NCBI GenBank assembly: GCA_977017645.1
Contig: OZ360245.1
Coordinates: 20,088,001-20,152,000 of the forward strand
Direction of reading: 5' to 3'
Length of the DNA stretch: 64,000 bases
Source: Torpedo marmorata
Taxonomy: Eukaryota
Below, piece after piece: positions 772 through 57,870 of the stretch. Numbering within the stretch: position 1 is the first letter of the stretch; each line of letters starts with the position of its first letter. A program made the translations under genes and the position numbers. Under the pieces are notes generated by a model, which saw only the letters and a program-made list of their open reading frames with translations, did no database searches and had not been told where the DNA came from.

Positions 772-911
772 TACATCGATCAAGAGTTTTATCAGTGTTT
801 CACACTTAGGTTCTTATTCTACCTTTAGACTGATCCATATCAGGAACTCCTTGACAAAATTCTGAAACAACATAAAATGTTGAACGTTTGGACTTGTGCA
901 TTATTCAAATA

Positions 912-8720: not shown

Positions 8721-10305
8721 CAGGTGCCTAACCTGAAATTCTGAAAGCCGAACATTTTTTCAGTATATTTTCAGGTGTTTAGCTTAGTTTGAGCCAGTTA
8801 ATGTTTGAAGTTTTAATGTGTTTTACTTCGACCATAAAATTACTAGCGTATTTTATTTTTATCTTTATCTCGCTTCATTTATCACCCCCCCCTGCGAAAC
8901 CCCCGTCCAGCGCCGCCGCGAAACCCCCGTCCAGCGCCGCCGCGAAACCCCCGTCCAGCGCCGCCGCGAAACCCCCGTCCAGCGCCGCCGCGAAACCCCC
9001 GTCCAGCGCCGCCGCGAAACCCCCGTCCAGCGCCGCCGCGAAACCCCCGTCCAGCGCCGCCGCGAAACCCCCGTCCAGCGCCGCCGCGAAACCCCCGTCC
9101 AGCGCCGCCGCGAAACCCCCGTCCAGCGCCGCCGCGAAACCCCCGTCCAGCGCCGCCGCGAAACCCCCGTCCAGCGCCGCCGCGAAACCCCCGTCCAGCG
9201 CCGCCGCGAAACCCCCGTCCAGCGCCGCCGCGAAACCCCCGTCCAGCGCCGCCGCGAAACCCCCGTCCAGCGCCGCCGCGAAACCCCCGTCCAGCGCCGC
9301 CGCGAAACCCCCGTCCAGCGCCGCCGCGAAACCCCCGTCCAGCGCCGCCGCGAAACCCCCGTCCAGCGCCGCCGCGAAACCCCCGTCCAGCGCCGCCGCG
9401 AAACCCCCGTCCAGCGCCGCCGCGAAACCCCCGTCCAGCGCCGCCGCGAAACCCCCGTCCAGCGCCGCCGCGAAACCCCCGTCCAGCGCCGCCGCGAAAC
9501 CCCCGTCCAGCGCCGCCGCGAAACCCCCGTCCAGCGCCGCCGCGAAACCCCCGTCCAGCGCCGCCGCGAAACCCCCGTCCAGCGCCGCCGCGAAACCCCC
9601 GTCCAGCGCCGCCGCCCAGAAACCCCCGTCCAGCGCCGCCGCCCAGAAACCCCCCCCGTCCAGCGCCGCCGCCCAGAAACCCCCCCTGTCCAGCGCCGCC
9701 GCCCAGAAACCCCCCCCGTCCAGCGCCGCCGCCCAGAAACCCCCCCGTCCAGCGCCGCCGCCCAGAAACCCCCCCGTCCAGCGCCGCCGCCCAGAAACCC
9801 CCGTCCAGCGCCGCCGCCCAGAAACCCCCGTCCAGCGCCGCCGCCCAGAAACCCCCCCGTCCAGCGCCGCCGCCCAGAAACCCCCCCCGTCCAGCGCCGC
9901 CGCCCAGAAACCCCCCCGTCCAGCGCCGCCGCCCAGAAACCCCCCCCGTCCAGCGCCGCCGCCCAGAAACCCCCCCCCCGTCCAGCGCCGCCGCCCAGAA
10001 ACCCCCCCCGTCCAGCGCCGCCGCCCAGAAACCCCCCCCGTCCAGCGCCGCCGCCCAGAAACCCCCCCCGTCCAGCGCCGCCGCCCAGAAACCCCCCCCG
10101 TCCAGCGCCGCCGCCCAGAAACCCCCCCCGTCCAGCGCCGCCGCCCAGAAACCCTTCTAGTTGGAGTGTGTCTTTGTTTTGCGCGAATCTGAAGCAACAC
10201 AATTATTTAAAAGTACCGCCGTTAAAATAATTCTATAATCTGAAAAAATCGGAATTCCGAAAAGTGTCCGGTTCCAAGGTTTTCAGATAAAAGGTTAGGC
10301 ATCTG
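8721..10305. mobile_element. Non-autonomous Tc1/mariner-pogo (Tigger-like) element carrying a GC-rich minisatellite
   Basis: TA flanks at 8719-8720 and 10306-10307; termini CAGGTGCCTAACC and GGTTAGGCATCTG; right ~74 bp nearly identical, inverted, to the left end of 61435-62337. Confidence 0.88.
8896..10154. repeat. Minisatellite: 30 perfect copies of GAAACCCCCGTCCAGCGCCGCCGC (24 bp), then ~18 variant units of 27-32 bp
   Basis: Directly visible; variant units add CCA and have C-runs of 5-10. Confidence 0.97.
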
Positions 10306-15596: not shown

Positions 15597-16412
15597 TGTA
15601 TCAAGCCAGCCCTGCTGGTGTGATAGTAATATTCATCTTTTTGTCAGTGAAATGAACAAATGATTCATTACCTTAATAGAGGATATGCCTGATCAACTGC
15701 ACACGGCACTGGGTGGAAATCTTGAAGTAATTTCTGTGACATTCTTAGTTGTCCTTTTTGGGAAAAGTAGATGCTACAAGAATGAATAATAACTTGCACC
15801 ACCACTTAAGAATTGCACATATCTTGATATGACTGCTCACTTGCATACAATGGTTGAAGATCAGCCGCACAAAGAATGTTGTTGCACCGTACCTACCATC
15901 TGAGCCTCTGCCTATCATAACAATTTCTAACAAACAGCCAGTAGTTAAAGATGCAGTACATCTTTTTCTTTTATATTAAAAAAAATACAAAAATGCACAA
16001 TCTACTTTATAAACCTCCACCATTCATAATGACCTTTGGGGACCCCACTATATTTTGTACAAACATAGTTTTGAAAATAAAGGGGCAGGGCAAAGTGAAA
16101 TTTTGCACTTCAATGCTGTAAAGATTTGTACAGGTTATACATGCTACTTTTAAACAATGGACATATTTTAAACCTAACGTGTACTGCAGCTTTATGCTAT
16201 GCATGAACATTGTCAATCGTATAAAGGAGGGAGTGTAACTCTGTTTACCTTCTCTTCCAATCAACTTTAACAGATTTTAAGATTTGGACATTTACTTTTT
16301 GCTCCACTCCAATTGTATATACCGTAGTTCATTTGTATTTCACTCCATAAAATGTAATTGCAGTAAATAATATTACAAGTTAGCAACAAACTAACATTGC
16401 TAATATAATTCA

Positions 16413-16603
16413 CATGCAGTTACACAGGAAAGTCTGCAGATGCTGGGATTGTCATGCAATACACAAGTGCTGAAGAAACTCAGCAGGTCATGCAGCATCT
16501 CTAGGAAGTAAAGGGTAAACTTTGACGAAGGGCTGTTGGTTATCCTTTACTTCCGAGAGATGCTGTGTGACCTACTGAGTTTCTCCAGCACTTTTGTGTA
16601 TTG
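16413..16603. mobile_element. Palindromic Penelope terminal-repeat (pLTR) insertion
   Basis: 12-bp TSD TAATATAATTCA (16401-16412 and 16604-16615); inverted arms TGCTGAAGAAACTCAGCAGGTCA and TGACCTACTGAGTTTCTCCAGCA. Confidence 0.8.
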
Positions 16604-16661
16604 TAATATAATTCATAAACTGAATTTTAACTTTTTTTTTTAATTTAAATTTTTTCTTTAA

Positions 16662-23820: not shown

Positions 23821-24050
23821 GTTTCTATGCATTCCATATAAAACTAAACACTGGTAGCCAAAGATAAGTTACTTCATTTTTTAAATTACCTACATCCAGC
23901 TGATTCACCAGATTGATAATGATTTATGCACTGGGTTTACACCTGTGTAAGAAGTCTTAATTTGTTTGCACACCAGTTAGCTCAACTGATCCATATTGTT
24001 GATTACTTAGCCTCTTGTTTCCTTTTGAAGATAGAATACTTTATTGAATG

Positions 24051-24087
24051 GGTTAGGGTTAGGAGTTTCTCCAGCATTTGTGTTTTT
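24051..24087 (+). mobile_element. 37-bp insertion: (GGTTAG)2 plus 25-bp Penelope terminus
   Basis: 14-bp TSD TACTTTATTGAATG (24037-24050 and 24088-24101); GAGTTTCTCCAGCATTTGTGTTTTT is the reverse complement of the PLE end at 36168-36192. Confidence 0.85.
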
Positions 24088-24957
24088 TACTTTATTGAAT
24101 GATCTGGTTTGTGCCATTTAATGCAAGTCTTTCCCTAATTTCAATGATAATAATCTATTGACGCCAAGATCAATATGAAATGCAGTCAACCTACCAAGCG
24201 ACCTTTATGGTAGTGAAACCTGGGTTTTGTATCAAAATTATCAAAAAGACAATGGAATAATAACATTATTGTTGCTGCCTTTGAGTCATCCTCAACTGAA
24301 ATGGGAAACCATAATACAACTGCCAGTGTCCGAAGCCAAAAATACAGTTATGGACTTCGTGATTCTTGATCAGTCTTGTTATGCTGAGCTGGTCACCCAG
24401 AGGGCACGTCAATTGAGACACTTCTGAAGCAAGTTTGCTGACCCCAGTTCAGTCAAAGGAATTGACCATGAAAGCATCTGTAGAAAAAAAAAGTTTAATA
24501 TTGAAAGTGGGGAAATTGAAGTGAAATAGAAATGATACAGATAGCCATGACCTTCTGAAAGATCTTTGAATTTTGAATTATCTATCAGAATGATTTCTAT
24601 TTGGGGTGGGGTAAAAGGCACAGTATAGGCCCTTCAGCTCAGGATGTTGTGCGGACCTACTTTATGTAAACCTACTACACAACTATCTAATTTTTCCCTA
24701 CCTCGCACCCATCACCCTCTATTTTTTTTCTTGCACCCATGTGACTATGTAAACAATGGCATGGCTAGGTCTTTATCTTGATCATGTATATTAGCTGCCT
24801 ATAGATTTGCACTTTGCTCCTAAGCCACTGAAGGTCCCACCGACAACCTTACTTCTAATTAAGGTCAAAATGAAAGAGAACATTCTCAAATGATTTGCCA
24901 AGATGTCCATAAAAAATTAACTGTATTCCCACAACAGGAATAATTCTTCAGTTTTCC

Positions 24958-28525: not shown

Positions 28526-29071
28526 GTACTACACAGCAGTCTTTTTTATTTTACTGTCTTTTCCTGAACCTTCAAAAAAATCTTTGTTTTCAGACTACTG
28601 AGATATTGCTGACTTTTCATGAATTACACTGTATACAACTGTTCAAGGTTTTGTCTTATGCTGAAGACTAGAATATAATTTTCAAGTTTGATGCATTTCT
28701 ATTGATTGCTATAAGTTGCTAAAAGAAAAACAACCAGAAATGGAAAAGTGTTTTCTTTACTATTGATGTTTATTGTCCAATATTTTAATGATGCAGCTTC
28801 ATTTACTTTTTGAGTGTTCTTGCGTTACAGATAACTTCTATTGTTACAATTCAGTCAGCATAAAAAATATTTGTCTTTGAATATTGGACTTTTGTTTTAA
28901 GATTTATAACAAAAAGTGTCCCAGTTTAATTTCAATTGGTAGTTTTAATTTATAGTATTCTGAGCTATTGGAATCTGCCTTTAACGCCATGCATCATTGT
29001 GTTACATTGCCATAAATTTTGTATTTCCGTAGCTGGTATTAACACCTTCTGGAAACTGATCAATGGGATTA

Positions 29072-29553
29072 GTAAAAAACACAAATGTTGGAGAAACTCA
29101 GCAGGTCAAACAGTGTCTTTTATGTAGCAAAGGTAGAAATACATAACTGACATTTCGGGCTTGAGCCCTTCATCAAAGTATGAGAAAATGCCGGCAGGCG
29201 TCTGAACAAAAGAGTGAGGGGGGGAAGGCGGGGGGTGGCAAAGGCAGGAGATGATAGGTGGAGAAAGGAGGGAGGGGACAGCAGCAAAGAGGGGGAGGAG
29301 GGATGGCTGGGTGGGTGGGAAAAAAAACAGGAAGGACAGATGAGGGGGGAGGGGGAAGGAAAAGACAAGCAGGTTTAGTGGAAACCAGAAAAGTCAATGT
29401 TAATGCCATCTGGCTGGAGAGTGCCCAGTCGGAAAATGAGATGTTCCTCCAAGCCTGTTTTTTTCCACCCACCCAGCCATCCCTCCTCCCCCTCTTTGCT
29501 GCTGTCCCCTCCCTCCTTTCTCCACCTATCATCTCCTGCCTTTGCCACCCCCC
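29072..29553 (-). mobile_element. Penelope-like 3' end with inverted duplication
   Basis: Similar to 36160-36270 and 47999-48380; ~100-bp inverted arms at 29231-29331 and 29454-29553. Confidence 0.8.
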
Positions 29554-29554
29554 C

Positions 29555-30210
29555 CTCCGCAGCCACACAGAGTCCAGTCCAAACCATTGGCAACCCGTGC
29601 TCAAGATCCGAACCTCCGACATGGTCAGGAACCCTTCAGCGCCTTCGGCACCCCCTCGCATCCCGGTTCTGATACCTGGTACCCCTTCAGCCAGTTCGAG
29701 CCAGTCTCCAGCAGTCTGCAGCCCGGCGCGAGTCTCCCGACAGCAGTCTCCAGCATCCCACAGCTTCTGTGGTTCCTCGCCTCGAGTCACCAGCAGCCGG
29801 CTGCATGCATAGGTCTTTCAGCCGCAGAGCCCCCTCACTGGTCCGCTGCCGTGGTCACCGTCCTGTGGGTTGTCTCCTCTGCTTCTCCTTCTCAGACGGG
29901 GTATGGTCTCCCCGTTTTCTGGTGCCCTGTGCCAGTCCTCCGCTCCCCTGGAGTCTGCAACCCCTCGTGGCTGCTGCCGATCAGAGGTGCTGCCATCTTG
30001 GGCGCAGACCCCGCGATCGCGGGATTGTAAATAAAACCACCGTCGGCTCCTTTAACGGGCCATTCAAAGCCTGTGCGGAGCTGACGGCAGTCGACTGGGC
30101 GGTTGGACCCCACTGGAGCGCTGTATCTCCACTCCTCGCTCCCCGCGGGTCTGCACCAGCGGCAGCGCTGCCGTTACAGTGGCTGCCGTTACAGAGAGAG
30201 GGGGAGATCC
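29555..30210 (-). mobile_element. GC-rich repeat, probable 5' leader of a non-autonomous retroelement
   Basis: Colinear with 53250-53915 (GTCCAAACCATTGGCA, GGAGTCTGCAAC, GCCATCTTGGGC, CAGCGCTGCCGTTACAG). Confidence 0.6.
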
Positions 30211-31662: not shown

Positions 31663-33900
31663 TACTCTTTTACTCTTAATATACTTGTAGAAACCCTGAA
31701 GAATTTCCTTCACATTGTCTGCCAAAGCAACCTCATGTCTTTTTTTAGCCTTCCTGATTTCTTTCGAGGTTTTTCTTTCATTTTTTATACTCCTCAAGTA
31801 CCTCATTTGCTCCATGTTGCTTATACCTGCTATATACCTCTCTCTTCTTCCGAACCAGATCCCCAATATCCCTCAAAAACCAAGGTTCCCTATGCCTGCT
31901 AACCTTGCCTTTAATCCTGACAGGAACATACAAACTCTGTACTCTCAAAATTTCACCTCCACTTACATCGCACATCCTTTCCTGAAAACAACTTATCCCA
32001 ATCCACGCATTCTAGATCCTTTCTCATTTCCTCAAAATTAGCCTTTCTCCAATTTAGAATGTCAACCCGAACCCGAGGTCCATAATTAACTTGAAACTAA
32101 TGGCATTATGATCACTGGACCCAAAATGTTTCCCTACATGTACTTCTGTCACCTGTCCTGTCTTGTTCCCTAAAAGGAGATCCAATATTGCATTCTCTCT
32201 AGTTGGTACCTCTAGAAATTGATTTAGAAAACTTTCCTGAACACATTTGACAAACTCCAAGCCATCCTGCCCTTTTACAGTATGGGAGTCCCAGTCAATA
32301 TGTGGAAAATTAAAATTCCCTCCTCTCACAACCTTATGTTTCCTGCATCTGTCTGCTATCTCTCTACAGATTTACTCCTCCAATTCTCGTTGACTATTGG
32401 GCTATCTATAATACAACCCCATGAGTGTGGTCATACCTTTTCCATTCCTCAGCTCCACCCATATAGCCTCAGTAGACGAGCCCTCTGGTCTGTCCCTGAC
32501 GAGCAATGCCACACCTCCCCCTTTCATCCCCGCCCCCCGTTCTATCACATCTAAAGCAACTGAAGACTGGAACATTGAGCTGCCAGTCCTGCCCCTCTTG
32601 CAAACAAGTTTCACTAATGGCCACAATGTCATAATTCCACGTGCCAATCCACGCTCTAAGCTCATCTGCCTTTCCTACAATACTCCTTGCATTGAAATAG
32701 ATGCACTTTAGAAAATTTCCACCACGTACAACCTGTTGACTTCTAATGGTGCATGCAATTTTCACATCATTTTTCTCTCCTCCACTCCTCTATCTGCTCT
32801 GGCACTCTGGTTCCCATCCCCCTGTAAACCCACCAGAGCAGCACGAGCACTAGCAAACCTTCCCGCAAGGATATTAGTGCCCCTCCAGTTCAGATGCACA
32901 CTGTCCTGTCGGAACAGGTCCCACCTTCCCTGGAAGAGAGCCCAATGATCCAGAAACCTGAAGCCCTCCCTCCTGCACCATGTCTTTAGCCACATGTTAA
33001 GCTGCATTATCCTCCTATTTCTAACCTCACTAGCACATGGCATGGGTAGCAATCCTGAGAACACAACCCTGGAGGTCCTGACCTGCAACCTAGCACCTAA
33101 CTCCCTGAACTCTCCTTGCAGGACCTCCTCACCTTTCCTACCCACTTCATTAGTCCCTATATGGACCACGACATCTGGCTGCTCACCCTCCCTCCTGATA
33201 ATGCCGTGAACTCGATCTGAGATATCTCGGACCCTGGCACCAGGGAGGCAACATACCATCTGGGATACTCAATCTCTTCCACAGAACCTCTCATCTGTCC
33301 CCCTAACTATGGAATCTCCTATCACTACAGCTCGCCTCTTCTCCTCCCTTCCCTTCTTAGCCACAGGACCAGACTCCGTGCCAGAGACCTGATCGCCGTG
33401 GCTTGTCCCGAGTAGATCCCCCCCCAATAATATCCAAAATGGCATACTTGTTATTGAGGGGAACGCCCTCTCCTGACTGTCACCCATGTACCCTCCTCCT
33501 CGGTGTGATAGTGTCCCTGTAACTCCTGTCTATCACCCCCTCTGCCTCCTGAATGATCCGGAGTTCATTCACCTCCAGCTCCAACTCCTTAACTCGGCTT
33601 GTCAGGAGCTGCAGCTGGATGCACTTCTCGCAGATGAAGTCATCAGGGATACTGCTGGTTTCCTTGACGACCCACGTTCTGCAAGAGGAGCATTCCCCTG
33701 CCTTGGCTGCCACTGTTTATGACGAGAGGAATAAAATATATGATATATAAAACCTGCCCTTACCTGTGCCTACCTGCTGAATCCTTTTTTTCCTTGAAAA
33801 GGGTGGCCCTTTCTTACTTCAACTCCTGCTATCCCTCGCCTCTTACCTGTTCTCGCTGAAGCCTGTTGAGCCTTACCACCCTGACTCAGTCCACACCCTC
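31663..33900 (-). mobile_element. CR1 LINE 5' half: ORF1 (zinc finger, coiled coil, SGNH esterase) and ORF2 APE endonuclease; 3' half missing
   Basis: CSSCRTW...CEKC; VIGDSIVRG and VVVHIGTNEV (esterase blocks); CIYFNARSIVGKADEL, GNFNFPHIDW, GSSDHNAISF (APE). Confidence 0.92.
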
Positions 33901-34219
33901 AACGGCTGCTCCTGTCCAGGTTTCTATCATTGGACTGCATCCAATTTTTGTATTTACCGTATATTTTGGTGTATAAGTCGACCCACAGATAAGTCGACCC
34001 CCCTTTTTCAGCCTCATTTTAATGGTTTTATTGTATATCGGGCGTATAAGTCGACCCCCTAAAAATTGCGATGCCTGAGATGTTGGGCATTGACCGGCGT
34101 ATAAGTCAACCCCCAAAAATTGTGATGCCTGAGATGCTGGGCGTTGACCGGCGTATAAGACGACCCACAACGAACGCGATGATTGAGCTGCTGGGCATTG
34201 GCTGGAGGTGATTGTTATC

Positions 34220-35548
34220 ATGGAGGGTCCATTGAAACGACAAAAGTATGAGGCGAGTTTTAAATTAAAAGTGATAGAAATGGCCAAGAAAACCAACAAC
34301 TGTGCTGCTGCAAGAAAATTTGATACATATGAGAAGTTAGTAAGAGATTGGAGGAAGAAAGAAGGGACTTTAAGAAAAATACCAAAAAGGCAATGTTCGA
34401 TGAGAAGAAGAATCACTCGTTGGCCAGAGTTGGAAAATCATGTTGCAACATGGGTACATGAACAGAGGCAACATTGCTACATAGTCACCCGAAATAAAAT
34501 AAGAACATTTGCACTGAAGTGGGCAAAGTCGCACCCAGAACTCAGTAATGATTTTGAAGCTACAGTCGGCTGGTGCAACCGTTTCATGAACAGGAAAAAT
34601 CTGGTATTACGACAAAAAACAAAAATTGCTCAGAAACTACCAAAAGATTTTGATCATAAAGTTGTAAGTTTTCACCAGTTTATTTTACGCAACCGGCAGA
34701 AACACAAGTTTGCATTGGCAAATATTGGAAACATGGACGAAACCCCATGAATTTTTACATGATAGGCAATAGAACAGTGGAATGGAAAGGTGTGAAAACT
34801 GTGCAAATCAGGAGTACAGGCCATGAAAGGACCAGGTTTACTGTGGTGTTATCGTACATGGCCGACGGGACAAAGTTAAGACCCATGGTAATCTTCAAAC
34901 GCAAATTGAAACCTAAAATAAAATTCCCTGCGGGTATTTTTGTACATTTTCATGAAAAAGGATGGGTGGATGGATGAAAATGGTGTAAAACTATGGATAG
35001 ACAATGTGTGGAACAGGCGGCCAGGCGGTTTACACAAGGAACGGAGTTTTCTGGTCTGGGATATGTTTCGTAGCCACTTAACTGAGAACACTAAAAGTAG
35101 ATTAGCACAACATAATACTTACATGGCGGTTATCCCGGGTGGTTTGACGTCTATATTGCAACCTCTCGATGTCTGCTTGAACAAGCCATTCAAAGACCAT
35201 GTGCGTGAAGAGTGGAATACATGGATGTCGAGTGCAGAAAAATCATTTACAAAAGGCGGGGCAATGCGTACTGCATCGCTTGATATGCTGTGTGACTTCA
35301 TGCTCAAGGCATGGGACAAAGTGAAAGTAGAGACTGTAATAAAATCGTTTAAAAAGTGCGGTATCTCTTGTGCAATTGATGGTACGGAAGATGATTTATT
35401 GTGGGACACTGACGTAGAAGCTGAAGCTGCCTCATTAGATACATACTGGGATCCATATGATGACTGTTTAAACAGTGAGACCCCGGATGTGCTTGCCGAG
35501 ATCTTTGCCTCAGACGATGATAGCGAAAGTGATTTTGAAGGGTTCTAA
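34220..35548 (+). pseudogene. DD35D transposase with two frameshifts (about -1 at ~34746, +4 at ~34968)
   Basis: Brinker-like DBD (YEASFKLKVIEMAKKTNNCAAARKF), CENP-B HTH, triad NMDET / VWD / QPLD with exactly 35 residues between the 2nd and 3rd Asp. Confidence 0.9.
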
Positions 35549-35609
35549 ATGTGTTGTTGTTTTCAATAAAAATTTCAATGAAAATTTGTTGCAGTCGGGT
35601 TTTTTTTTT

Positions 35610-35835
35610 GGTTTTTCAAGGGTCGACTTATACGCTGAATCAGGTTTTCAAGGGTCGACTTATACGCCGAATCGGGTTTTCAAGGGTCGACTTATACGCC
35701 GAATCGGGTTTTCAAGGGTCAACTTATACGCCGAATTGGGTTTTCAGAGGTTGACTTATACACCGATTCAGGTTATCAAGGGTTGCCTTATACACGGAAT
35801 TGGGTTTTCAAGGGTCGACTTATACGCCGAATCGG
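35610..35835. repeat. Subterminal ~32-bp tandem array (~7 units) containing the TIR core CGACTTATACGCCG
   Basis: GGGTTTTCAAGGGTCGACTTATACGCCGAATC repeated; ~4 units in copy 1 (2637-2760). Confidence 0.9.
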
Positions 35836-36127
35836 CGTGGAGCGGTTTTTGAGCTGAATTTAAGGTCTCAAAAGTATATCTGGCGTATAAGTCGACCCCC
35901 ATTTTTTGAGAGATTTTTGAGGGTTTCAAGACTCGACTTATACGCCGAAATATATGGTATTTTCTTGACTTGGTTTGAACCTGTTTTCTGTCACTTTGAT
36001 AACTAGAATAGTTTCAGCTCTTCCTATTACATGTGGGAATCAAGACATGTTCATTTTAAGAATCGCATTGTGAAACTAGGGAGTGTTGTAAATCTGAAAT
36101 GATGCATTTAGTTGTATATGCATTAGA

Positions 36128-36658
36128 AATAAAACACGAAAATCTGTAGACACCGTGGTTGAAGTAAAAAACACAAATGCTGGAGAAACTCAGCACGTCA
36201 AACAGTGTCTTTTATGTAGCAAAGGTAGAAATACATAACCGACGTTTCGGGCTTGAGCCCTTGATCAAAGTGGCGGCGGAGGCAAGTAGCAAGGAAGGCA
36301 ACGTGGCTGTGGAATCGAGTCTGGGTGAGTATATGGTCGTAGAGCTTGAGAGCAGCAGGGGTTACAGATGGGGAGCAGTGAGAGAGAATCCCACAGAACT
36401 CACTTCGAAGAGCAAAGGCGAACTTCTTCAGGGTAGGCATCCATCAAAGAGTTTTCACAGAGTTGTTGTAGTATTCAGAAGTAAAACACGAAAATCTGTA
36501 GACACCGTGGTTGAAGTAAAAAACACAAATGCTGGAGAAACTCAGCAGGTCAAACAGTGTCTTTTATGTAGCAAAGCTTGAGCCCGAAACGTCGGTTATG
36601 TATTTCTACCGTTGCTACATAAAAGACACTGTTTGACCTGCTGAGTTTCTCCAGCATT
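36128..36658 (-). mobile_element. Penelope-like element with direct and inverted pLTRs
   Basis: 11-bp TSD TATGCATTAGA (36117-36127 and 36659-36669); direct copies at 36130 and 36482, inverted copy 36576-36657; short ORF piece (HSHVAFLATCLRR) between. Confidence 0.85.
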
Positions 36659-37694
36659 TATGCATTAGATTGTGTTTAGCTTCAGATTCCAGAATCTGCA
36701 GTCCGCTTTGTGACTCCATGATGCCTTTAATGACAGGATTTTTTGTGTTGTTTGTTACTTTTACATGTTCCCATTTTTGGCCTGTTTCTTTAGTAATCTC
36801 TCAAACAGTAAAGATGACCAGCATGTAATTACAGTGCATATCAAAAGAGATTCAGGTGTAATCATTTCTGTGCAACAGAAGTCCATTTTCTCTCCCCATC
36901 TTCAGTAATGCAAGATAACATGCAGTCTGTCAATCTGCTTCCCAACCAGTAATTTGGAAAAGTTTACCAAGAGAATTCCATAGGGTAGTGGCATTATCAG
37001 TCTTGTTTAGTCGAGTGGAAAAACAGAATAAACAGTCATTTAGAGAACGAGGAGATTAGAGTTGGAGATTGAATGGATGTTAGTTGAATATACCTTTATA
37101 AGATGACAATTTTTAGTGACTGATTCCAGTAAAATGGTATATTTAGAAAATGGAACAGTAGAATTTTGTCATTCTGCAAAAGAAAATCACCTCCTCCTCA
37201 AAGCAGTAATTTGTTCATATTGAATCATAGGAATCGACAGTACTAAGTAACCATCTGACCGTCTAATATTGATAGTTTTACCCACCAATGTTTTAATAAG
37301 CTCAACTGCTCTTTCCAGCAAGCATTATTGGTCTCTGAATATTAGCCAAACTCCCAATCCCCCTGCCCCCTCCACTGTCTGTGAGGGCGAATTTGGAATT
37401 ATTTCAATTTCCTATCCTGCAAAGGAGAGACATGCATTTGAATTCTGCTTTGTACATGTCTTCCAGGGCTTACCAAATAGCTTTACTACCAGTGAAATGC
37501 TTAAAAGACCTGCTTTTTTGCCAGCTTGCCCAAAGAAAACTCTCATAAGCATCAGTGAATAGGGTTAGGGTTAAAAATCCTTGTACTCCCTTGAAAACAT
37601 GCCATGACTTCTTTCTCTGTTCATTGGGGAGAGCAGAGGGCCATCGGAAACCCAACTAACATCTGGCCTGGCTGCTGAAGTCCAGGATACTTTA

Positions 37695-39807: not shown

Positions 39808-40370
39808 TATTATGGTGACTTCGATCCAACAATAGTCACCTGGAGGCTAAGTGAGATACTTGTCTTTGACGCGTTTTAATTAATTTACTAACAAAGTCCA
39901 ATATGTTCAAAATCTTTATTTACACACGTGACTTGCAGTAATCTTCAATGACTTCAATATAAACAGTTCTTGAAAACGATGTATGATGAGTTTCTTTAAA
40001 TAATTCTTTAAACAATTCCAAAACGATGGATAAGTTATAAAACGATATAAAACGCTGTAAAACGGTCAATAAAGATATGGCGATCTCACTCACCCTCCTA
40101 CATTCATTCCTTTCCTTTTCTCTCCGATTCGCGCATGCTCTGTCGCTCCTATAACACTGCGCACCCTCCATAGCGCATACTACATTTCCCAAACTACCCC
40201 GCGCACAATGACGTCACTCCACACTGCGCATGCGCCCGTTGGCACTCCAGCGCATGCTCAGAGCACAGAACGGGCCGAGGACAGCCCAACGGACAACGCG
40301 AGCGCTCCACAAGCCGACGAGACATCGGAGCGCCGCAGCAAGGTAAGTTAATGAGCCTACGGCTCTTACA
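39808..40370 (-). repeat. BEL 3' LTR (563 bp)
   Basis: Direct repeat of 47224-47799; by eye about 9-10 substitutions plus 3-bp and 10-bp indels. Confidence 0.95.
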
Positions 40371-40567
40371 CCGGCCCCTAATTATTATAATTAGACGCAA
40401 TGTCTTGAATAATAATTACACTATAAATTATAATAACAATAACCATAACATTCAAACAATACAAATCTTCTTTCTTCCTTCTTCATAAATCTAGAGTTTA
40501 CCATAATTCTGATTCAACAAAAGTCTGTAACCTGTGAAATATACAACAACAAGTCAGTTTATATTTA

Positions 40568-41980
40568 TTAAAATTCCTCTGTCTCCAACAAAAGGCAGAC
40601 CTTGTTAATAGGTCTGTTTAGAAAACCAGTCTTAGTTTTAATTCGCACTTGACGCACAAGTCCCCTTTTGTCTTGAAAAGTCTCAATAATTTTTCCAAGT
40701 AACCATGAATTTCTCGGAGCTGAATCATCCATTATAATCACAATGTCTCCTGATGTAAAATTGCGTCTGAGGTTAAACCATTTTTGCCGTTCTTGCAGCT
40801 GAAGAAGATATTCTTTAACCCATCTTTTCCAAAATAAATCTGACATATACTGTATCTGTCTCCATCTCCGACGAGCGTATATGTCTTCCTTCTTAAATTG
40901 CCCTGGTGGCATCGATAGATTAGTTTTAAGAAGCAAGAGATGGTTCGGGGTAAGTGCCTCAAGATCATTTGGATCTGTAGAAGCCTTAGTGATTGGACGA
41001 CTGTTTAAAATAGCTTCAACTTCACATAAAACTGTGGAAAGACCCTCCTCGTTCAGACTTTGCACTTTTAAAGTGGAATTAAGTACCCTTCGTATTGATC
41101 TAATTAATCTTTCCCATACACCGCCATAATGTGAACCAGTTGGTGGGTGGAATTTCCAATCAATTCCTTTCTGAAGTAATGTACTATGTATTTGATCTTG
41201 ATTCCAACCTCCGATTGCCTCTTTTAACTCGCGTTGAGCTCCTACAAAATTAGTACCATTGTCAGATCGTATTTCTTTCACTTGACCACGTCTGGATATA
41301 AAACGCCGAAGAGCATTGATAAAAGAGTCTGTGTCAAGAGATAAAGCCACTTCAATATGGATTGCTCTTATAGCTAAACATGTGAAAATAACACCATAAC
41401 GTTTTACAACACTTCTTCCACGCTTAACATCAAAAGGTCCAAAATAATCGACTCCAACATATGTGAAAGGAGGTTCATCGGGAGAGACTCTGTCCAGAGG
41501 CAAATCTGTCATCTGCTGTTGTCCAGGAGTGAGATTTAATCGCCGACAAGCAACACATTTTGATACAATTTTTCTAATTAACACAGTGGCACCAATAATC
41601 CAATATTTTTGTCGTAGTTCGGATAACATATGATTGCGACCACCATGACCCACCTTTTCATGAATATGCCGAAGAATTAAATCAGAGATATAAAAATCCT
41701 TGGCCAGTATAACGGGATGTTTCATCTCTTCTGGTATTGCAGCTCTGCTAAGTCGCCCACCAACTCTTAATACACCATTCTCCAAAATGGGATTAAGTTT
41801 ACGAAGAATACTTGTTCTTTTAACATTCATTCCCCCTTTCAAACTCGAAATTTCGTCTGCAAATCTTTTCTTCTGACAAAAGCGAATTATCTCCATTTCA
41901 GCATCAATCAATTCTTCAACTGTAAGACGTTTTCCTTTCTGTGGCTCAGTAACATTGTTTGTTCGTTTGTTACGATTCAA
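40568..41980 (-). CDS. BEL pol integrase region, uninterrupted 470-codon reading frame within a disrupted pol
   Basis: HHCC (HEKVGH...CVAC), VGVDYFGPF, SDNGTNF, GVWERLI. Confidence 0.85.
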   Translation of the reverse strand: MNRNKRTNNVTEPQKGKRLTVEELIDAEMEIIRFCQKKRFADEISSLKGGMNVKRTSILRKLNPILENGVLRVGGRLSRAAIPEEMKHPVILAKDFYISDLILRHIHEKVGHGGRNHMLSELRQKYWIIGATVLIRKIVSKCVACRRLNLTPGQQQMTDLPLDRVSPDEPPFTYVGVDYFGPFDVKRGRSVVKRYGVIFTCLAIRAIHIEVALSLDTDSFINALRRFISRRGQVKEIRSDNGTNFVGAQRELKEAIGGWNQDQIHSTLLQKGIDWKFHPPTGSHYGGVWERLIRSIRRVLNSTLKVQSLNEEGLSTVLCEVEAILNSRPITKASTDPNDLEALTPNHLLLLKTNLSMPPGQFKKEDIYARRRWRQIQYMSDLFWKRWVKEYLLQLQERQKWFNLRRNFTSGDIVIIMDDSAPRNSWLLGKIIETFQDKRGLVRQVRIKTKTGFLNRPINKVCLLLETEEF

Positions 41981-42076
41981 AAACCATTTTTAAAATCTGA
42001 GCAACCACGCTATTGCTCTTTTTAAACTATTGCAAGATGAAAATCTATGTATTAAATAAGTGATACAATCCCTTTG

Positions 42077-45000
42077 TTAAGATATTATCTGCAATGCATT
42101 TGCAGTTTTAATCTCATTTATAGATTGATCATAGGGTTCTTCTTCTTTGATTTCACAATCATCTAATAAAATTTCCTTTAATTTATCAGGATTTTGAGAT
42201 CGTAAAAGAAACTTAGGCCCAGATATCCACATTTCATTCTTTAGAAAAGATTTGATTTTTAAACCTCGAGAAGCCAAATCAGCAGGATTATCAACTGCTT
42301 TAATATATTTCCATTGTTTTGGACATGAGACTTTATCAATTTCAACAATTCTGTTAGCCACAAAGTTCGAAATCTTGTGGTCTTATTGTTGAGGTATTTA
42401 AGTACAGATGTGCTATCTGTCCAAAAAATAGAGTCTGCTAGATTCATCTGCAGCTCTTTTCTTAGTACTGTGTCCATTCTACTTGCCATGGCAGCAGCCG
42501 TTAACTCCATTCGAGGTATAGTAACTGGTTTTAATGGAGCCACGCTAGCCTTTCCCATTACGAATCCACAATGTATATGAATTTTATTACTATACAGTAA
42601 CAGATAACTAACAGTTCCATAACCTTCCTCACATGCATCAGCAAAATGATGAAGTTGAGCAAATGTCACCTTTCCAAAGTTGATGGGTTTGAAACATCTG
42701 TCAATCTTGAAGCTTTCCAACAAATGAAGATCCTTATTCCAACATATCCAGTTCTGTACAATGGAATCTGGTATCTTATCATCCCAACCTATCTTTTTTC
42801 TACACAGATCTTGCAAGATCTTCTTGGCAGTTAAGACGACTGGTGCCAATATTCCTAAAGGATCATAAATTGAACTGATCGTTGATAGTATCCCTCTTCT
42901 TGTGAGAGGTCTGTCCTTCAAAATGATTTTGAACTTGAAAACATCAGACTGAATACACCATTGTATACCCAACACTCTCTCAACAGGAAGATTGTCATGA
43001 TCTAAATCTAAATTCTTCATTTCTTTTGCTCTTTCTGCTTCAGGTATGACAGCCAACACACGACGACTGTTACTTATCCATTTTGTAAGTAGAAATCCAC
43101 CCTTTAAACAGATTTTTCGTAATTCATAATAAAGAAATATTGCATTTTCTTCAGAAGTTGTAGAAGTAAGACAGTCATCTCCATAAAAATTGTTCAAAAT
43201 GGTGCTTACAGCTTGAGAGCTAAACTCTGTCACATTATCCTCAGCACACTTCCTAAGGGCATAGTTCGCACAACTTGGAGGAGATGATGTTGCTCAAATA
43301 AATGTACTGTCATTCTATATTCTTTCATATTTTGTTTGTAGTTTCCATCAGGCCACCATAGGAACCGTAATAAATCACGATCTTCATTTGGTACTTTCAC
43401 TTGATGAAACATTGCTTCAATGTCAGCGGTGATAACAAAAGGTTCTTTACGGAATCTTATCAAAACTCCTATTAATGTACTAGTCAAATCTGGTCCTTGT
43501 AACAACTGAGAATTTAGTGACACTCCTCTATAAGTCGCTCCACAGTCAAACACAACACGAAGTTTTTTTCTTTTGTGGATGTAAAACCCCATGATGTGGT
43601 AGATACCATTTTTTACCATCATTACGTCCCAATACATTATCTGGTATCTTCTCTGCGTAACCTTTTGATATCATATTAGACATAAAATTGCTATAATCCG
43701 AATGAAAAGAAGAATCTCTATTAAATCTTTTTCTTAAATTCAGTGTACGTTGAGCTACGTTTCTATTGTCAGGCATGTATACTTCTTTTATCTTTACAGG
43801 TAATCCAATACAATAATGTCCATCAACTAACTCGGCAGATTCTGAGACAAAATTCAAAAACTGCTTATCTTCTTTTGAATATTCTTGTTCATCTCTGAGG
43901 CACTCAGGAAAGTCACTTTTGAATTGCTGTTCCCATAGCTCACCAAGTTTCATAACTGAAATTCTATTAACATTTATTGCTAACTGTTCCTGAGCTTTAT
44001 CACCTGTATCTCCTAATGGTCCATTGATTGTCCAACCAAGCATGGTTTTAACAGCATAAGATCCATTCCTTTTACCCTGTATTACTTCTTGTGGTACCAA
44101 AACCTTTGGCACATCTGAACCAATCAGCATTTCTATTTCAGAATTAATTTCAGGTAAATAAACCTTCCACAGATAAGCTAAATGATGGATATCCCTTTGA
44201 AGAGGAATATTTCCTTCATTCACAGGCATAGTCTTTGTTGTGTATTTCGGGTGTAAGCTTACAATAACCGTCTTCATTCATCCTTTATTACTAAACTAAA
44301 ATGGTATTCAGCGTTACCCCTTATATAGTACGTATGACGTCATTACGTCATACGTTATACGTTACATATACAACAGTCTTCTGAGTATATACACTTGGAA
44401 GATCACAAAATTTTTTGTCATCCAATCCAGCAACCTCTAAGCCTGAAACAATGTTAGTTTCAACAACCTTTTCTTGTCCCATGGTTTTTAACATAATTCT
44501 TGATCTTCTTCCTTGAATATTAAGTTTATTCATTAGTCCTTCCGTGCAAAAAGATGCAGTGCTGCCTGGGTCTAAAAATGCATATGTTTTTACTATTACA
44601 TCCCCTTTCTTGGCCTTGACTTGTACAGGCACTATTGAAAGTTTGCAGTTATCCACACCGGCCCCAGTAAGACCACTTGTCTGAACCGAGGTTATAACAT
44701 TATTTTCTGTTGTTTCCTTTGTTTCTGTTTGCTCCTTTTCCAATTCCTTGTTTCTGTTATGGATATGCAAAATTCTAGGATGTCTCAAATTGCATATGTT
44801 ACAATTAATTCGCTTCTCGCAGTTTTTACTGATGTGTCCTTTACACAGACAGCTAAAACATATTCCATTTTCCTTTAAGAAAGCGATCTTTTCCTTATGT
44901 TCCTTCTTTTCCAATCGTAAACACATTTCCAAAGTATGTCCACCTTTACAAAACAAACAACTCTTTTTATCAGGCAAACTTTCCTTTTCCTTATTTACTT

Positions 45001-46837: not shown

Positions 46838-47223
46838 TGGACCAGCGGCAGCAATTCCAATCTGTGTTCTTACTTGCTAAAGATACACAGAAGGAGTCCA
46901 CAGACTTATGCCAACCACTTCAAATGACTGTAATGTACTGCAATCCACAAACGAGTTTCAACCACAACATCCGTCAATAATATCACTAATTTTCCAAAAA
47001 TAGTTTCTCCAACGTATTTATAGGACACTTTACTATAAGATTTGAAGCTTTAAATCCCTCTCTGGCTGTTATTCATGGCAGATGGATGTGGATTACAAAC
47101 TGCCCCCTACTCGAGGCATCTCCAAGATGGCCACCATTTTATATCAGTCCAAAGCACAGAGAGATTATTCTATCTTCTTTCCTTCAATTTTCTGTTCCAA
47201 ACATCCAGCCACTTTATTGACTA

Positions 47224-47799
47224 TATTATGGTGACTTCGATCCAACAATAGTCACCTGGAGGCTAAGTGAGATACTTGTCTTTGACGCGTTTTAATTAAT
47301 TTACTAACAAAGTCCAATATGTTGAAAATCTTTATTTACACACGTGACTTGCAGTAATCTTCAATGACTTCAATATAAACAGTTCTTGAAAACGATGTAT
47401 GATGAGTTTCTTTAAATGATTCTTTAAACAATTCCAAAACGATGTATAAGAAGTTATAAAACGATATAAAACGCTGTAAAACGCTGTAAAACGGTCAATA
47501 AAGATATGGAGATCTCACTCACCCTCCTACATTCATTCCTTTCCTTTTCTCTCCGATTCGCGCATGCTCCGTCGCTCCTATAATACTGCGCACCCTCCAT
47601 AGCGCATACTACATTTCCCAAACTACCCCGCGCACAATGACGTCACTCCACACTGCGCATGCGCCCGTTGGCACTCCAGCGCATGCGCAGAGCATAGAAC
47701 GGGCCGAGGACGGCCCAACGGACAACGCGAGCGCTCCACAAGCCGACGAGACATCGGAGCGCCGCAGCAAGGTAAGTTAATGAGCCTACGGCTCTTACA
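47224..47799 (-). repeat. BEL 5' LTR (576 bp)
   Basis: Sense strand starts TGTAAG and ends ATAATA; CpG-rich first half with TGACGTCA and GCGCATGCGC motifs, AT-rich second half with AATAAA. Confidence 0.95.
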
Positions 47800-47998
47800 C
47801 CACTGAATTCTGCAAGATCACTTGGCACAGTGCCTAAGTAACAACCTGAGCTGAAATTTGGTACCAGGTCCTTAATAGATTCTATGATTTTCTCTCGAAT
47901 GTAAATCACATTTACTTCATGGCCTATAATTGCCCATTTTCTCTTTTTCAAAAGTCACGTGGTTGCTAGTATTTGTTCCAATTCAGTCTCTGGTCAAC

Positions 47999-49344
47999 GT
48001 AAAAACACAATGCTGGAGAAACTCAGCAGGTCAAACAGTGTACTTTATAAAGATTCATAACCAACGTTTCAGGTTTGAGCCCTTCATCAAGATATGACAA
48101 AATGTAGGTGGGCGCCTGAACAAAATGGTGGGGTGGGGGCAGGAGGAGGAGCACAGTCCCAAAGGCAGGAGGTAATAGGTGGATAAGGAAGGGAGGGCAT
48201 ACCAGCAAGCAGGGCGAGGGGGGATGGCCCTGTGAATGGAGAGGGAAGGGGGTGGAGAGCTGGAGTAAAGAAGACAAAGGGAATGGGAAGGGAGGGAGAA
48301 TGGAGAGTAGGCTAGCAGAAACTGGAGAAGTTGATGTTAATGCCATCCGGTTGGCCCAGACAGAAAATTAAGTGTGCTCCTCCAAGTTATGGGTGGTCTT
48401 GTTTGGACAGTACACGAGGCCATGGACAGATATGTCAGCATGGGAGTGGGGCACAGAATTGAAATGGTTGGCCACTGGGAGATCCCTGTCACTGATGCGG
48501 ACAGAGCGAAGGTGCTCAGCGAAGCGATCTCCCAGTCTGCGTCCAGTCTCGCTGATGACGAGAAGGCCACAACGGGAGCACCGGATGCAGTAGATAACTC
48601 CCGCAGATACACAAGTAAAGTGTTGCTTCACTTGAAAGGACCATTTGGGGCCCCGAATGGTGGTGAGGGAGGAGGTGTGGGCACAAGTGAGGCACTTCCT
48701 ATGGCCACTGGGGAAGGTGCCAATGGGGCGAGTAATGAGAAGGGATGAGTGGACGAAGGAGTCACGGAGGGAGCGGTCCCTATGGAAGGCAGAGAGGGGA
48801 AGATGTGTCTGATGGGGGGGGATCATGTTGTAAGTGGCGGAAATTGCGGAGGATAATGTGTTGGATGCAGAGGCTGGCTCGGTGGTAGGTGAGGACAAGG
48901 GGAATCCTGCGTTTGTTACATCTGGGGGCAGAGGGGGCCAGGGCAGACGTGCGGGAAATGGAGGAGATGCGGGTGAGGGCTGAGTTGATGGTGGTAGAGG
49001 GGAAGCCATGTATGTGGAAGAAGGAGGGCATATCAGATGATCTGGACTGGAAGACCTCATCTTCGGAACAGATGCGGCGGAGATGGAGAAATTGCGAGAA
49101 GGGAATGGAATCCTTGCAGGGGACTGGGTGTGAAGAAGTGTAGTCAAGGTAGTTGTGGGCGTTTGTGGGTTTGTAAAATATGTCTGTGGAAAGCTTGTCT
49201 CCCGAGATGGAGACAGAGAGATCAAGAAAGGGGAGAGTGTCGCCGGAGATGGACCAAGTGAATTTGAAGTCGGGGTGGAAGTTGGCAGCAAAGTGAATGA
49301 AGTTGACGAGCTCATCATGGGCGCATGAGTGTTTTATTTTACAC
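47999..49344 (-). mobile_element. Penelope-like element, 5'-truncated: RT C-terminus, GIY-YIG endonuclease, pLTR
   Basis: 15-bp TSD CAGTCTCTGGTCAAC (47984-47998 and 49345-49359); LPFLDLSV, YLDYTSSHP, VIYCIRCSRCGLLVISETGRRLGDRFAEH. Confidence 0.92.
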
Positions 49345-50098
49345 CAGTCTCTGGTCAACAGTGACATTTCACACCCCTGATTTTGAGGGAGTTTGTTGAT
49401 GGTAATATGTCTGCATATTGTGGAAAGTTAGTTAATCATTTATGTTCTTATGTGCTGTATGATATAAAACTTGTAGGAAGTGCCTCATATTGATATTTGA
49501 TGTTCTTTTGATTAAAATATCAGTGTGATGTAAGTTGCTAATGAAAATTGTCGATTTCAAGCATAACTTGCAAAGTATCTGACTCTTTTGGAAGTTGTTC
49601 CTTCTTGTTTTTTAAGGTAGCAATACAAGTTGAAAGTAGTTGATAATTTCTTGGTTAGCGCCCAATTGGCCATAGTTGGGCCCGCAAAGAATAAATGTGT
49701 TACTTGATTATTTTGAACTTCAATTCTTAACTGTTTGTATTTCTTTGCTGAATAAACTTAACATTTTTGCTTAAATAAATGTAAAGTGAGATGAAAGATT
49801 TTGAAAACCAGAAAAATGGTGTGCTTTTGCATTTTGGTACATTGAACAATTTTTGCCAATGGTTGAATATTTCATTTCAAATTCTTAAAATACACGTTCC
49901 ATGCAAAACACCTTTAAAATTAATGAAGGATGTTTTGCCTCGAGATTGATGTTAACAAAGTTATTTTGGTTATTTATATATTGAGGTAAATTAATGAAAT
50001 TATTTAATTGCAGTGCAAATCAATTATTGCATGGTCACGTTTTGCTTTGTATTGTTCTGCTGGTTAATTAAATTGCCCTTTTCTTTCCAATTTTGTAG

Positions 50099-57214: not shown

Positions 57215-57870
57215 ATTTCTTTGAGGTAGGTAGAAGAATATATTTCCCCCCCACCCCTCTCACCTCTACCACGCACCACCTTACCCAAGTAATTGTTTCT
57301 CATGGAACTTGTTTAAGATGAGAAGATTGATGACTGACGATCAGTAACTTGAAGGAGAGATTAAAACCACCATTTAACACAAACGTAATCATTGACCCAA
57401 CATCTTCTTTAAACATTCTGCCTCTCACCTTAAGGAGTGAAACACAAATGTCTACAGTCACTGTGATTGTAGTAAAAACACAAAAATGCTTGAAGAACTC
57501 AGCAGGACTCACAGCGTCCGTAGGAAGCAAAGATCAACGTTTTAGGCAGAAGGGCTCCGGCCTGCTGAGTTCCTCCAGCATTTTTGTGCCTCTCACCTTA
57601 AACCTATTTGACATTTCCATACAGGAAAAACGACTATCTGTACCTCATAATTTTATATACTTCTGTCAAGTTACTCCTCAGCCTGCGTCATTCCAGTGAA
57701 AACAATCGAAGTTTGTCCAACCTCTCCTCATCGCTAATATACTCCAGTGCAGGCAACATCCTGGTCAACCTCTTCTGCACTCTCTCCAAAGCCTCCACAT
57801 ACTCCCTAAAATATGGCAACCAGAACTGCACACAATGCTCTAAATGCAGCCTAATTAAAGTTTTATAAAG
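57215..57870 (-). mobile_element. CR1 LINE fragment containing a Penelope insertion
   Basis: Reverse complement reads LYKTLIRLHLEHCVQFW; sequence continuous across the 57434-57586 insert. Confidence 0.75.
57434..57586. mobile_element. Palindromic Penelope pLTR insertion
   Basis: 15-bp TSD TGCCTCTCACCTTAA (57419-57433 and 57587-57601); inverted arms CACAAAAATGCT...GAACTCAGCAGG and CCTGCTGAGTTC...AGCATTTTTGTG. Confidence 0.8.

What the first reader, a model, noticed from the sequence alone, without database searches (positions are those of the whole stretch)
24037..24101. Penelope micro-insertion joined to its target by exactly two telomere repeats
Seen: TSD TACTTTATTGAATG, then GGTTAG GGTTAG, then 25 nt of Penelope terminus, then the same TSD. 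Longer copies in this window have CCTGCT before GAGTTTCTCC, so the 12 nt are not element-derived. Known: vertebrate telomerase adds repeats ending in the GGTTAG register, and short interstitial telomeric repeats mark repaired breaks. Inference: telomerase extended the free target 3' end during target-primed insertion before joining to the truncated cDNA, or the Penelope RT (a telomerase relative) switched onto telomeric template.
Basis: partly seen in the sequence, partly recalled or inferred. Interest (0 to 1): 0.7.

Follow-up and report, generated by a model that had tools for sequence, protein, structure and literature searches.

The report
Telomere repeats sealing a retrotransposon insertion
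A tiny jumping-gene insertion, probably in a ray genome, is joined to the chromosome by two telomere repeats that a related animal lacks at the same spot, which suggests that telomerase briefly extended the cut DNA end during the insertion, though this is one case.

Summary
In detail: a perfect 14-bp target duplication (24037-50, 24088-101) encloses GGTTAGGGTTAG plus the short 3' end of a Neptune-type Penelope-like element. Both refutation tests failed to refute. None of 8 other copies in the window has telomere repeats there, and a relative's single contig crosses the site with neither repeats nor element. The repeats run G-strand-first from the target's free top-strand 3' end. In 3 of 4 other duplication-flanked copies in the window, that slot holds an inverted element arm. 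Best reading (0.55): telomerase took this second primer, added two repeats, and end-joining closed the gap. Main rival (0.25): a template jump to telomeric RNA/DNA, or a captured fragment. 'Exactly two, in register' is weaker than claimed, because a G on each side makes the run 12-14 nt. The filled allele was seen in no laid run, and no genome-wide test was possible. A second 14-nt telomeric run lies at 37560. Earlier scan notes report telomerase-type scars on other DNA; none of the 8 shown of 27 was at a retro-insertion junction. A new variant of known short interstitial telomere insertions.

The parts
24037..24050 (+). Left target-site duplication (14 bp); inferred 3' single-stranded overhang of the top strand after a staggered cut
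   Evidence: only >=14-bp direct repeat of this kind near the site; relative shows one copy of its last 10 nt
24051..24062 (+). Filler GGTTAG x2, G-rich strand running away from the target 3' end; telomere-phase run 24050-24063 if the flanking Gs are counted
   Evidence: longest local match within 300 bp is 6 nt and within 2 kb is 8 nt; absent in relative
24063..24087 (+). 5'-truncated 3' end of a Neptune-type Penelope-like pseudo-LTR, sense orientation, short (tail-less) terminus
   Evidence: 30/30 identity over 24063-24092 to copies at 36162-36191 and 36514-36543; alignment A1; 3762 contigs of run X1 laid, nearly all on this piece
24088..24092 (+). 5-nt overlap TACTT shared by element and target: 3' junction microhomology (likely primer-template pairing)
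24088..24101 (+). Right target-site duplication (14 bp)
47984..49359 (-). Reference: longest related copy (15-bp TSD) with RT-thumb, Zn-finger-like linker, GIY-YIG remnant, hammerhead-like motif and the same short terminus; fixes the sense strand
36117..36669 (.). Reference: compound insertion of the same family, 11-bp TSD, inverted pLTR arm with tail at the left junction
57419..57601 (.). Reference: related-family insertion, 15-bp TSD, inverted pLTR arms
16401..16615 (.). Reference: related-family palindromic insertion, 12-bp TSD
37560..37573 (+). Second perfect 14-nt telomere-phase run, not beside a Penelope piece; possible short interstitial telomere insertion
   Evidence: not tested against other genomes

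Best explanation
One insertion event with two reverse transcriptases. (1) The element's GIY-YIG nuclease makes a staggered cut in AT-rich DNA, leaving two 14-nt 3' overhangs (inferred from the TSD). (2) The bottom-strand end pairs with UACUU at the element's short terminus and primes cDNA, which stops after about 25 nt (shown: 5-nt overlap and truncation; inferred: priming). (3) The top-strand end, which in this family often primes a second, inverted element arm, is taken by host telomerase instead. Its last G pairs with the template, two GGTTAG units are added with one translocation, and synthesis ends at the template boundary (inferred). (4) Twelve nucleotides are too few to seed a telomere, so end-joining with at most 1 nt of overlap links this end to the truncated cDNA, and fill-in makes the TSD (inferred). 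The product is a repair scar with no likely function.
For: Empty orthologous site: one 1335-nt contig of organism B covers 23841-24032 and 24092-24610 and skips 59 bases (3 runs, one sample). Not element-derived: 0 of 8 window copies have it; the loose ends listed before 24063-24065 in run X1 are element consensus (5 contigs). Not locally templated. Polarity is G-strand from the target 3' end. In 3 of 4 other TSD-flanked copies in the window that junction holds an inverted pLTR arm, and a purified Penelope-like protein cleaves AT-rich DNA and extends both strands (PMC11167929). Telomerase needs an overhang of about 5 nt, and its product is expected to be end-joined internally if shelterin does not load (10.1101/2022.10.31.514589, passages). 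Telomeric insertions with target duplication are known: 6 of 130 rodent, 4 of 25 primate and 3 of 66 horse loci. The catshark telomerase RNA template is 10 nt followed by a non-matching base (PMC8537989 supplement), so one pass cannot give these 12 nt and a translocating enzyme is implied if the host's RNA is similar. The closest protein relatives of the element are from a stingray, so TTAGGG telomeres are expected.
Against: One case. Only 1 base is in register at the start (chance up to 25%), and the end fits 2 of 6 phases. The filled allele was not seen in any laid run. Organism B is distant (86% and 93% identity on the flanks), so two successive events are not excluded. B also shows 3 letters where the window's empty site would have 8, so it confirms only the last 10 nt of the TSD. 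In vitro the anole element primed without homology to the target, so the 5-nt overlap need not be causal. Extra bases at 5' junctions are common in fish LINEs (about 40-50%) and are attributed largely to template jumps. The inverted arms have also been explained by self-priming, not by priming from the second target strand (PMC3846280).
Confidence: 0.55

Rival explanations
1. Template jump or capture without telomerase: after 25 nt the element's RT jumps to TERRA or G-strand telomeric DNA, copies 12-14 nt and is joined to the target; or a repair polymerase or end-joining patches in a telomeric fragment.
For: A TERRA or G-strand jump gives the same polarity. Jumps to non-coding RNA at 5' junctions are seen for R2 (almost always U6; PMC11371274 passages), and template jumps are proposed for zebrafish LINE fillers. 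Capture of telomeric fragments was named as the alternative to telomerase for short interstitial repeats. The 1-nt overlaps at both ends fit end-joining.
Against: It does not predict the in-register start or the end at the template boundary. Together these have a chance of about 1 in 12 for a jump, and about 1 in 24 for random capture once strand is included (my estimate from 1/4, 2/6 and 1/2). A whole number of repeats is not expected.
Confidence: 0.25
2. Two steps: an ordinary, probably inverted-arm insertion came first. A later break (for example cleavage at the base of a cruciform, which lies at the TSD edge) removed most of it, and telomerase or capture added the repeats before rejoining.
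For: Inverted-arm copies are common here (3 of 4). Telomeric insertions often come with deletions (30-50% of loci). The relative is too distant to separate events.
Against: The deletion has to end exactly at the left TSD edge. TSDs, filler and element piece carry no mismatch, which leaves little time for two events.
Confidence: 0.08
3. The donor RNA already had the repeats: a source copy or minor subfamily in which GGTTAGGGTTAG precedes this part of the pLTR.
For: The family is very large in organism A (summed depth about 3.1 million on the piece against about 10 on unique DNA), so rare chimeric donors can exist. The tool's tables were cut (3976 pieces and 40 loose ends not shown), and human-like contigs are filtered.
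Against: 0 of 8 window copies. No listed piece in 4 runs begins left of 24063 within the filler, although a 42-nt piece would rank among the longest, and mean depth in the bin 24046-24072 is explained by 24063-24072 alone. It also only moves the origin of the junction elsewhere.
Confidence: 0.05
4. Chance or slippage: a random 6-nt filler was duplicated, or the assembly is wrong here.
For: 3 of 5 perfect period-6 runs of 14 nt or more in the window are non-telomeric, so hexamer duplications occur. The scan has read a very large number of windows. No run shows the filled allele.
Against: p about 6e-7 per 12-nt filler. 2 of the 5 runs are telomeric, although only 12 of 4096 hexamers are in telomere phase. 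An assembly error is unlikely to make a TSD, a true element terminus and telomere repeats together.
Confidence: 0.04
5. The Penelope-like RT itself, a telomerase relative engaged on the top-strand end, used telomerase RNA as template and repeated it.
For: The top-strand end is a primer for this enzyme class in vitro, and the RTs share ancestry with TERT (PMC8557442).
Against: It needs boundary recognition and translocation, neither reported for these enzymes in what I read. One pass of a catshark-type template gives 10 nt.
Confidence: 0.04

Closest known systems
Short interstitial telomeric sequences (s-ITS) inserted at repaired double-strand breaks, 'duplication' and 'sequence addition' classes (PMC2246262; PMC7215372)
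   Same: Telomeric hexamers appear at a site that is empty in a relative, with a target duplication and an in-register base at the break's 3' end.
   Different: Only two repeats (the Nergadze 2007 search used four as query). The break is apparently the retrotransposon's own staggered cut, and the co-inserted sequence is element cDNA, so the polarity of the break is known.
TERC-ITS of vertebrates, including two catshark loci (PMC8537989; PMC2246262 section 15)
   Same: One-step insertion of telomeric repeats together with a second reverse-transcribed piece at one break.
   Different: The second piece is Penelope RNA, not telomerase RNA, and it lies downstream of the repeats at the element's normal priming site.
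Endonuclease-positive Penelope-like elements, Neptune clade; inverted 5' pLTR and optional tail (PMC8557442, PMC3846280, PMC11167929)
   Same: Heavy 5' truncation, TSD, AT-rich target, two 3' termini separated by a tail, inverted arms in neighbouring copies.
   Different: Telomere repeats take the place of the inverted arm. I found no description of this for endonuclease-positive elements.
Endonuclease-deficient Athena/Coprina elements at telomeres (as summarised in PMC3846280 and PMC8557442)
   Same: Telomeric repeats abut the truncated 5' end of a Penelope-like element.
   Different: Those prime on the telomeric overhang, carry reverse-complement telomeric repeats and are capped on the cDNA end. 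Here the site is internal, has a TSD, and the G-rich strand is on the element's sense strand, the opposite polarity (my inference from their model).
5' extra nucleotides of LINE insertions and template-jump chimeras (PMC2666801, PMC4245944, PMC11371274)
   Same: Non-element, non-target filler between the left TSD and a 5'-truncated element.
   Different: The filler is telomeric. In PMC4245944 and PMC2666801 'telomer' occurs only in reference titles.

Membership tests
Penelope-like element (EN+, Neptune type) | RT followed by C-terminal GIY-YIG endonuclease in the parent family | tested here: met
   Copy 47999-49344(-): the RT-thumb piece has 62 homologues at E<=1e-20 among 114 candidates, most carrying PF26215 (Atlas). 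The next frame resembles GIY-YIG clusters at 0.95. Pfam scans found no family on these pieces. The copy is broken by frameshifts.
Penelope-like element (EN+, Neptune type) | CX2-5CxxC Zn-finger-like linker before the endonuclease (PMC8557442) | tested here: inconclusive
   CxxC present with the first cysteine position decayed (SGHRKCLTC); no tree built, so the clade name is a likely, not tested, assignment.
Penelope-like element (EN+, Neptune type) | Pseudo-LTRs in direct or inverted arrangement, optional 30-40 nt tail, hammerhead motif | tested here: met
   Inverted arms and tailed versus tail-less ends. A hammerhead-like core (TGATGA...GAAAC around a short hairpin) is visible by eye, but Rfam found 0 matches at gathering score.
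Target-primed retro-insertion | TSD, intact element 3' end, 5' truncation, empty site in a relative | tested here: met
   many contigs in run X1 end at the same terminus (loose ends behind 24094-24097). The relative confirms only 10 of the 14 TSD letters.
s-ITS inserted by telomerase | Telomeric repeats absent from the orthologous site | tested here: met
   joint 24032-24092 in one contig of organism B.
s-ITS inserted by telomerase | Excess of in-register bases at the break's 3' end | tested here: inconclusive
   One base (G at 24050) in register; the criterion is statistical and needs many loci.
s-ITS inserted by telomerase | Dependence on TERT/TERC | not testable with these tools
   Needs a transposition assay with and without telomerase.
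TERC-ITS | Fragment of telomerase RNA outside the template next to the repeats | tested here: not met
   All 37 inserted bases are accounted for by telomere repeat and element; the host's own telomerase RNA was not available.
Athena/Coprina telomere-associated PLE | No endonuclease, reverse-complement telomeric repeats within the element, terminal location, no TSD | tested here: not met
   Family has a GIY-YIG remnant, no telomeric hexamer in 5 of 5 copies scanned, internal site with TSD.

The most novel reading that the evidence does not exclude
In this lineage telomerase regularly competes with the Penelope-like RT (and perhaps other LINE RTs) for the second-strand 3' overhang of retrotransposition intermediates. 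It leaves one- to few-repeat, G-strand-polarised, template-boundary-ended fillers at 5' junctions across the genome. Telomerase would then be a host factor in completing retro-insertions, and the second run at 37560 would reflect unusually loose control of telomerase at breaks in ray germlines.
Probability: 0.3. Interest if true: 0.75.

Novelty: new variant of a known kind. Interest (0 to 1): 0.47.

Why it matters
Whether short interstitial telomere repeats come from telomerase or from captured telomeric fragments has been argued from statistics at breaks of unknown geometry. A TSD-flanked retro-insertion fixes which strand was cut where and which 3' end was free, so strand, start register and end register become directly scorable. 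With a family of very high copy number, a single ray assembly could supply enough junctions to decide the question. It would also name a host enzyme acting in the poorly understood second-strand step of Penelope-like transposition. As a single locus it is only a 51-bp scar without function.

Tried and rejected
No whole genome is held for this window, so the genome-wide junction test could not be run. Collection scans for host DNA: viral contigs 0; metagenome contigs 0 for element-plus-telomere in either orientation within 30 nt; 87 stretches for a generic 18-mer, all without element flanks and with no BLAST match to the window, i.e. chance matches; prokaryote genome contigs 0. These say only that host DNA is not in those collections. 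Run X1 (organism A, 99% identical on 24204-24610) has no cover at 23830-24045 and none from unique contigs at about 24116-24203, so it is uninformative on the site; about 92 in 100 of it was read. Rfam: 0 matches. Pfam: no family on the Penelope frames. No TSD found for the copy at 29071-29553, so it is left out of the 3-of-4 count; the 48-kb copy's 17-nt 5' piece matches the inverted tail over only 8 nt and is counted as not inverted. The binned count of three runs double-counts the run at 37560; one search shows two. The pLTR fold is not exceptional (z = -1.49). Local templating rejected. Telomerase capping the cDNA end and a cDNA jump onto telomerase RNA rejected on strand polarity. Earlier scan notes: 0 for this genome, 0 by sequence and 0 holding all words in two word searches. 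Ten literature searches showed no paper describing telomeric filler at the 5' junction of a TSD-flanked retro-insertion; the library lacks most subscription papers, and bioRxiv supplements were not visible, so this is not proof of absence.

Full report
Observation. The structure is present as described: TACTTTATTGAATG at 24037-24050, GGTTAGGGTTAG at 24051-24062, a 25-nt piece at 24063-24087, and the same 14-mer at 24088-24101. A 12-nt filler in telomere phase has p about 6e-7. A run of 14 nt or more is expected 0.0007-0.0024 times per window and occurred in 0 of 450 simulated windows. The window holds two such runs, at 24050 and 37560. There are two corrections. The element match extends to 24092 (30 of 30 nt against two copies), so TACTT is shared by element and target. 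The filler has a G on either side, so its length is 12-14 nt and the register is uncertain by one base at each end.

The element. The piece belongs to a Penelope-like family. The longest related copy (47984-49359, minus strand, 15-bp TSD) encodes a frameshifted RT-thumb region, a decayed Zn-finger-like linker and a GIY-YIG-like domain. It ends at the same short terminus, which fixes the plus strand as sense at the micro-insertion. Its two best protein relatives are from the stingray Hypanus sabinus (66-68% identity; 62 hits among 114 candidates), so the host is probably a cartilaginous fish, likely a ray. Pfam and Rfam gave no match. Copies end either at the short terminus or about 35 nt further on. 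This agrees with the two initiation sites and the 'tail' reported for the anole element (PMC11167929; I read parts 1-2 of 4). 'Neptune' rests on the linker motif described in PMC8557442 (passages); I built no tree.

Refutation tests. (1) Subfamily. Of 8 other motif copies in the window, 6 have CCTGCT upstream, 2 have one-base variants and none has telomere repeats. In run X1, 3762 contigs were laid, nearly all on 24063-24092, with summed depth about 3.1 million against about 10 for unique DNA. The loose ends listed before the piece are element consensus, and no listed piece reaches into the filler. The tables were cut and human-like contigs are filtered, so a rare chimeric donor is not excluded. 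(2) Empty site. Five runs were found and four were laid. In the three runs of organism B (one sample), one 1335-nt contig covers 23841-24032, shows three other letters, and resumes at 24092 through 24610. It has a single copy of the last 10 TSD letters, no telomere repeats and no element. The flanks are 86% and 93% identical to the window. Against my reading: B has 3 letters where the window's empty site has 8, it is too distant to separate successive events, and no run showed the filled allele. X1 has a hole over the site. The filler is not templated nearby (longest match 6 nt within 300 bp, 8 nt within 2 kb).

Geometry. A 14-bp TSD implies a staggered cut with two 14-nt 3' overhangs (established target-primed model; inference for this locus). 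The bottom-strand end primes the cDNA, and the top-strand end is free. The filler reads G-rich 5' to 3' from that free end. This excludes telomerase capping the cDNA end, which is the order described for endonuclease-deficient elements (PMC3846280, passages), and it excludes a cDNA jump onto telomerase RNA. It allows telomerase on the top strand, a cDNA jump onto TERRA or G-strand DNA, or fragment capture. Of 4 other TSD-flanked Penelope insertions in the window, 3 carry an inverted pLTR arm at that junction (16401-16615, 36117-36669, 57419-57601). The fourth has a 17-nt piece with only an 8-nt match, and a fifth copy without a TSD was left out. The purified anole protein cuts AT-rich DNA and extends both strands, so the top-strand end is plausibly a live primer. 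Self-priming has been proposed as another origin of the inverted arms.

Mechanism. I favour telomerase (0.55). It needs an overhang of about 5 nt, and its product is expected to be joined internally if shelterin fails to load (10.1101/2022.10.31.514589, passages). The last target base is in register, and the minimal filler ends at GGTTAG, the vertebrate template boundary (recalled; consistent with the templates). The catshark telomerase RNA has a 10-nt template followed by a non-matching base (PMC8537989, supplement part 2 of 3), so 12 nt need a translocation step if the host's RNA is alike. The weight of this evidence is modest: about 1 in 12 by chance for a TERRA jump and 1 in 24 for random capture (my estimate). 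Fillers are common at fish LINE 5' junctions and are mostly ascribed to template jumps (PMC2666801 and PMC4245944, passages), and R2 jumps to U6 RNA (PMC11371274, passages). Jump or capture therefore gets 0.25. A later break in an inverted-arm copy gets 0.08, a chimeric donor 0.05, chance or assembly error 0.04, and the element's RT copying telomerase RNA 0.04. Shown: the sequence anatomy, absence in a relative, absence from the family consensus as far as visible. Inferred: every enzymatic step.

Comparison with what is known. Short interstitial telomeric insertions at repaired breaks are established by comparison of filled and empty loci, including target duplications (6 of 130 rodent, 4 of 25 primate, 3 of 66 horse loci) and an excess of in-register bases (PMC2246262, passages and section 15; PMC7215372, passages). 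TERC-ITS loci, two of them in a catshark, combine telomere repeats with a second reverse-transcribed piece (PMC8537989, passages and section 11). Three telomeric inserts were recovered at I-SceI breaks (PMC5110952, passages). This locus works like those but is not a TERC-ITS and not an Athena-type element. What differs is that the break is apparently the retrotransposon's own, so its polarity is known. Ten searches showed no report of this combination; subscription papers and bioRxiv supplements were not visible. A retrozyme preprint (10.64898/2026.07.22.740005, passages) did not bear on it. Earlier scan notes describe telomerase-type scars in rotifers, an arthropod and a yeast (8 shown of 27). 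They are unchecked leads, and none shown is at a retro-insertion junction.

Limits and verdict. No host genome is held and the collections contain no host DNA, so recurrence is untested. The second run at 37560 hints at a raised background of short telomeric inserts: 2 of 5 perfect period-6 runs of 14 nt or more are telomeric. It was not tested against other genomes, and it ends in GGTTA, not GGTTAG. Verdict: a real, probably young, single-event insertion with a telomeric filler; a new variant of a known kind; interest 0.47, rising to about 0.75 if the pattern recurs with strand and register bias.

Noticed in passing
window 37560-37573: Second perfect 14-nt telomere-phase run on the plus strand in apparently unique DNA, with no Penelope piece and no TSD found; suggests short telomeric inserts may be frequent in this genome.
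   Followed up: partly
window 24083-24092 region and PMC8537989 supplement: The 10-mer GTTTTTTACT at the element's short terminus also lies at the template boundary of the catshark telomerase RNA. Probably a low-complexity coincidence; it does not explain the product.
   Followed up: partly
window 16401-16615, 36117-36669, 57419-57601: TSD-flanked (11-15 bp) Penelope insertions made almost only of inverted pLTR arms; both TSD copies abut element 3' ends.
   Followed up: yes
window 24063-24092: The family is far more abundant in organism A than in B (3762 versus 73-82 contigs laid). Run X1 also holds a contig with this 30-mer in tandem, separated by two letters.
   Followed up: no
window 29071-30200: Penelope copy with an internal 100-bp inversion (29230-29331 versus 29454-29553) fused to a GC-rich repeat that recurs at 53280-53884; no TSD found.
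   Followed up: partly
window 39808-47801: Pao/BEL-type LTR retrotransposon (DUF1759, Peptidase_A17, integrase, DUF5641) with direct repeats of about 570 bp at 96% identity.
   Followed up: no
window 8894-10144: GC-rich 24-bp minisatellite, 48 copies at 98% match.
   Followed up: no
window 909-2879 and 33952-35960: Two copies of a DDE_1 (pogo-like) DNA transposon with internal 32-bp tandem repeats.
   Followed up: no
window 32762-33268 and 60768-63905: A GDSL-esterase-like frame (typical of some LINE ORF1s, recalled) and a SCAN/zinc-knuckle plus integrase region suggesting a Gypsy-type element.
   Followed up: no
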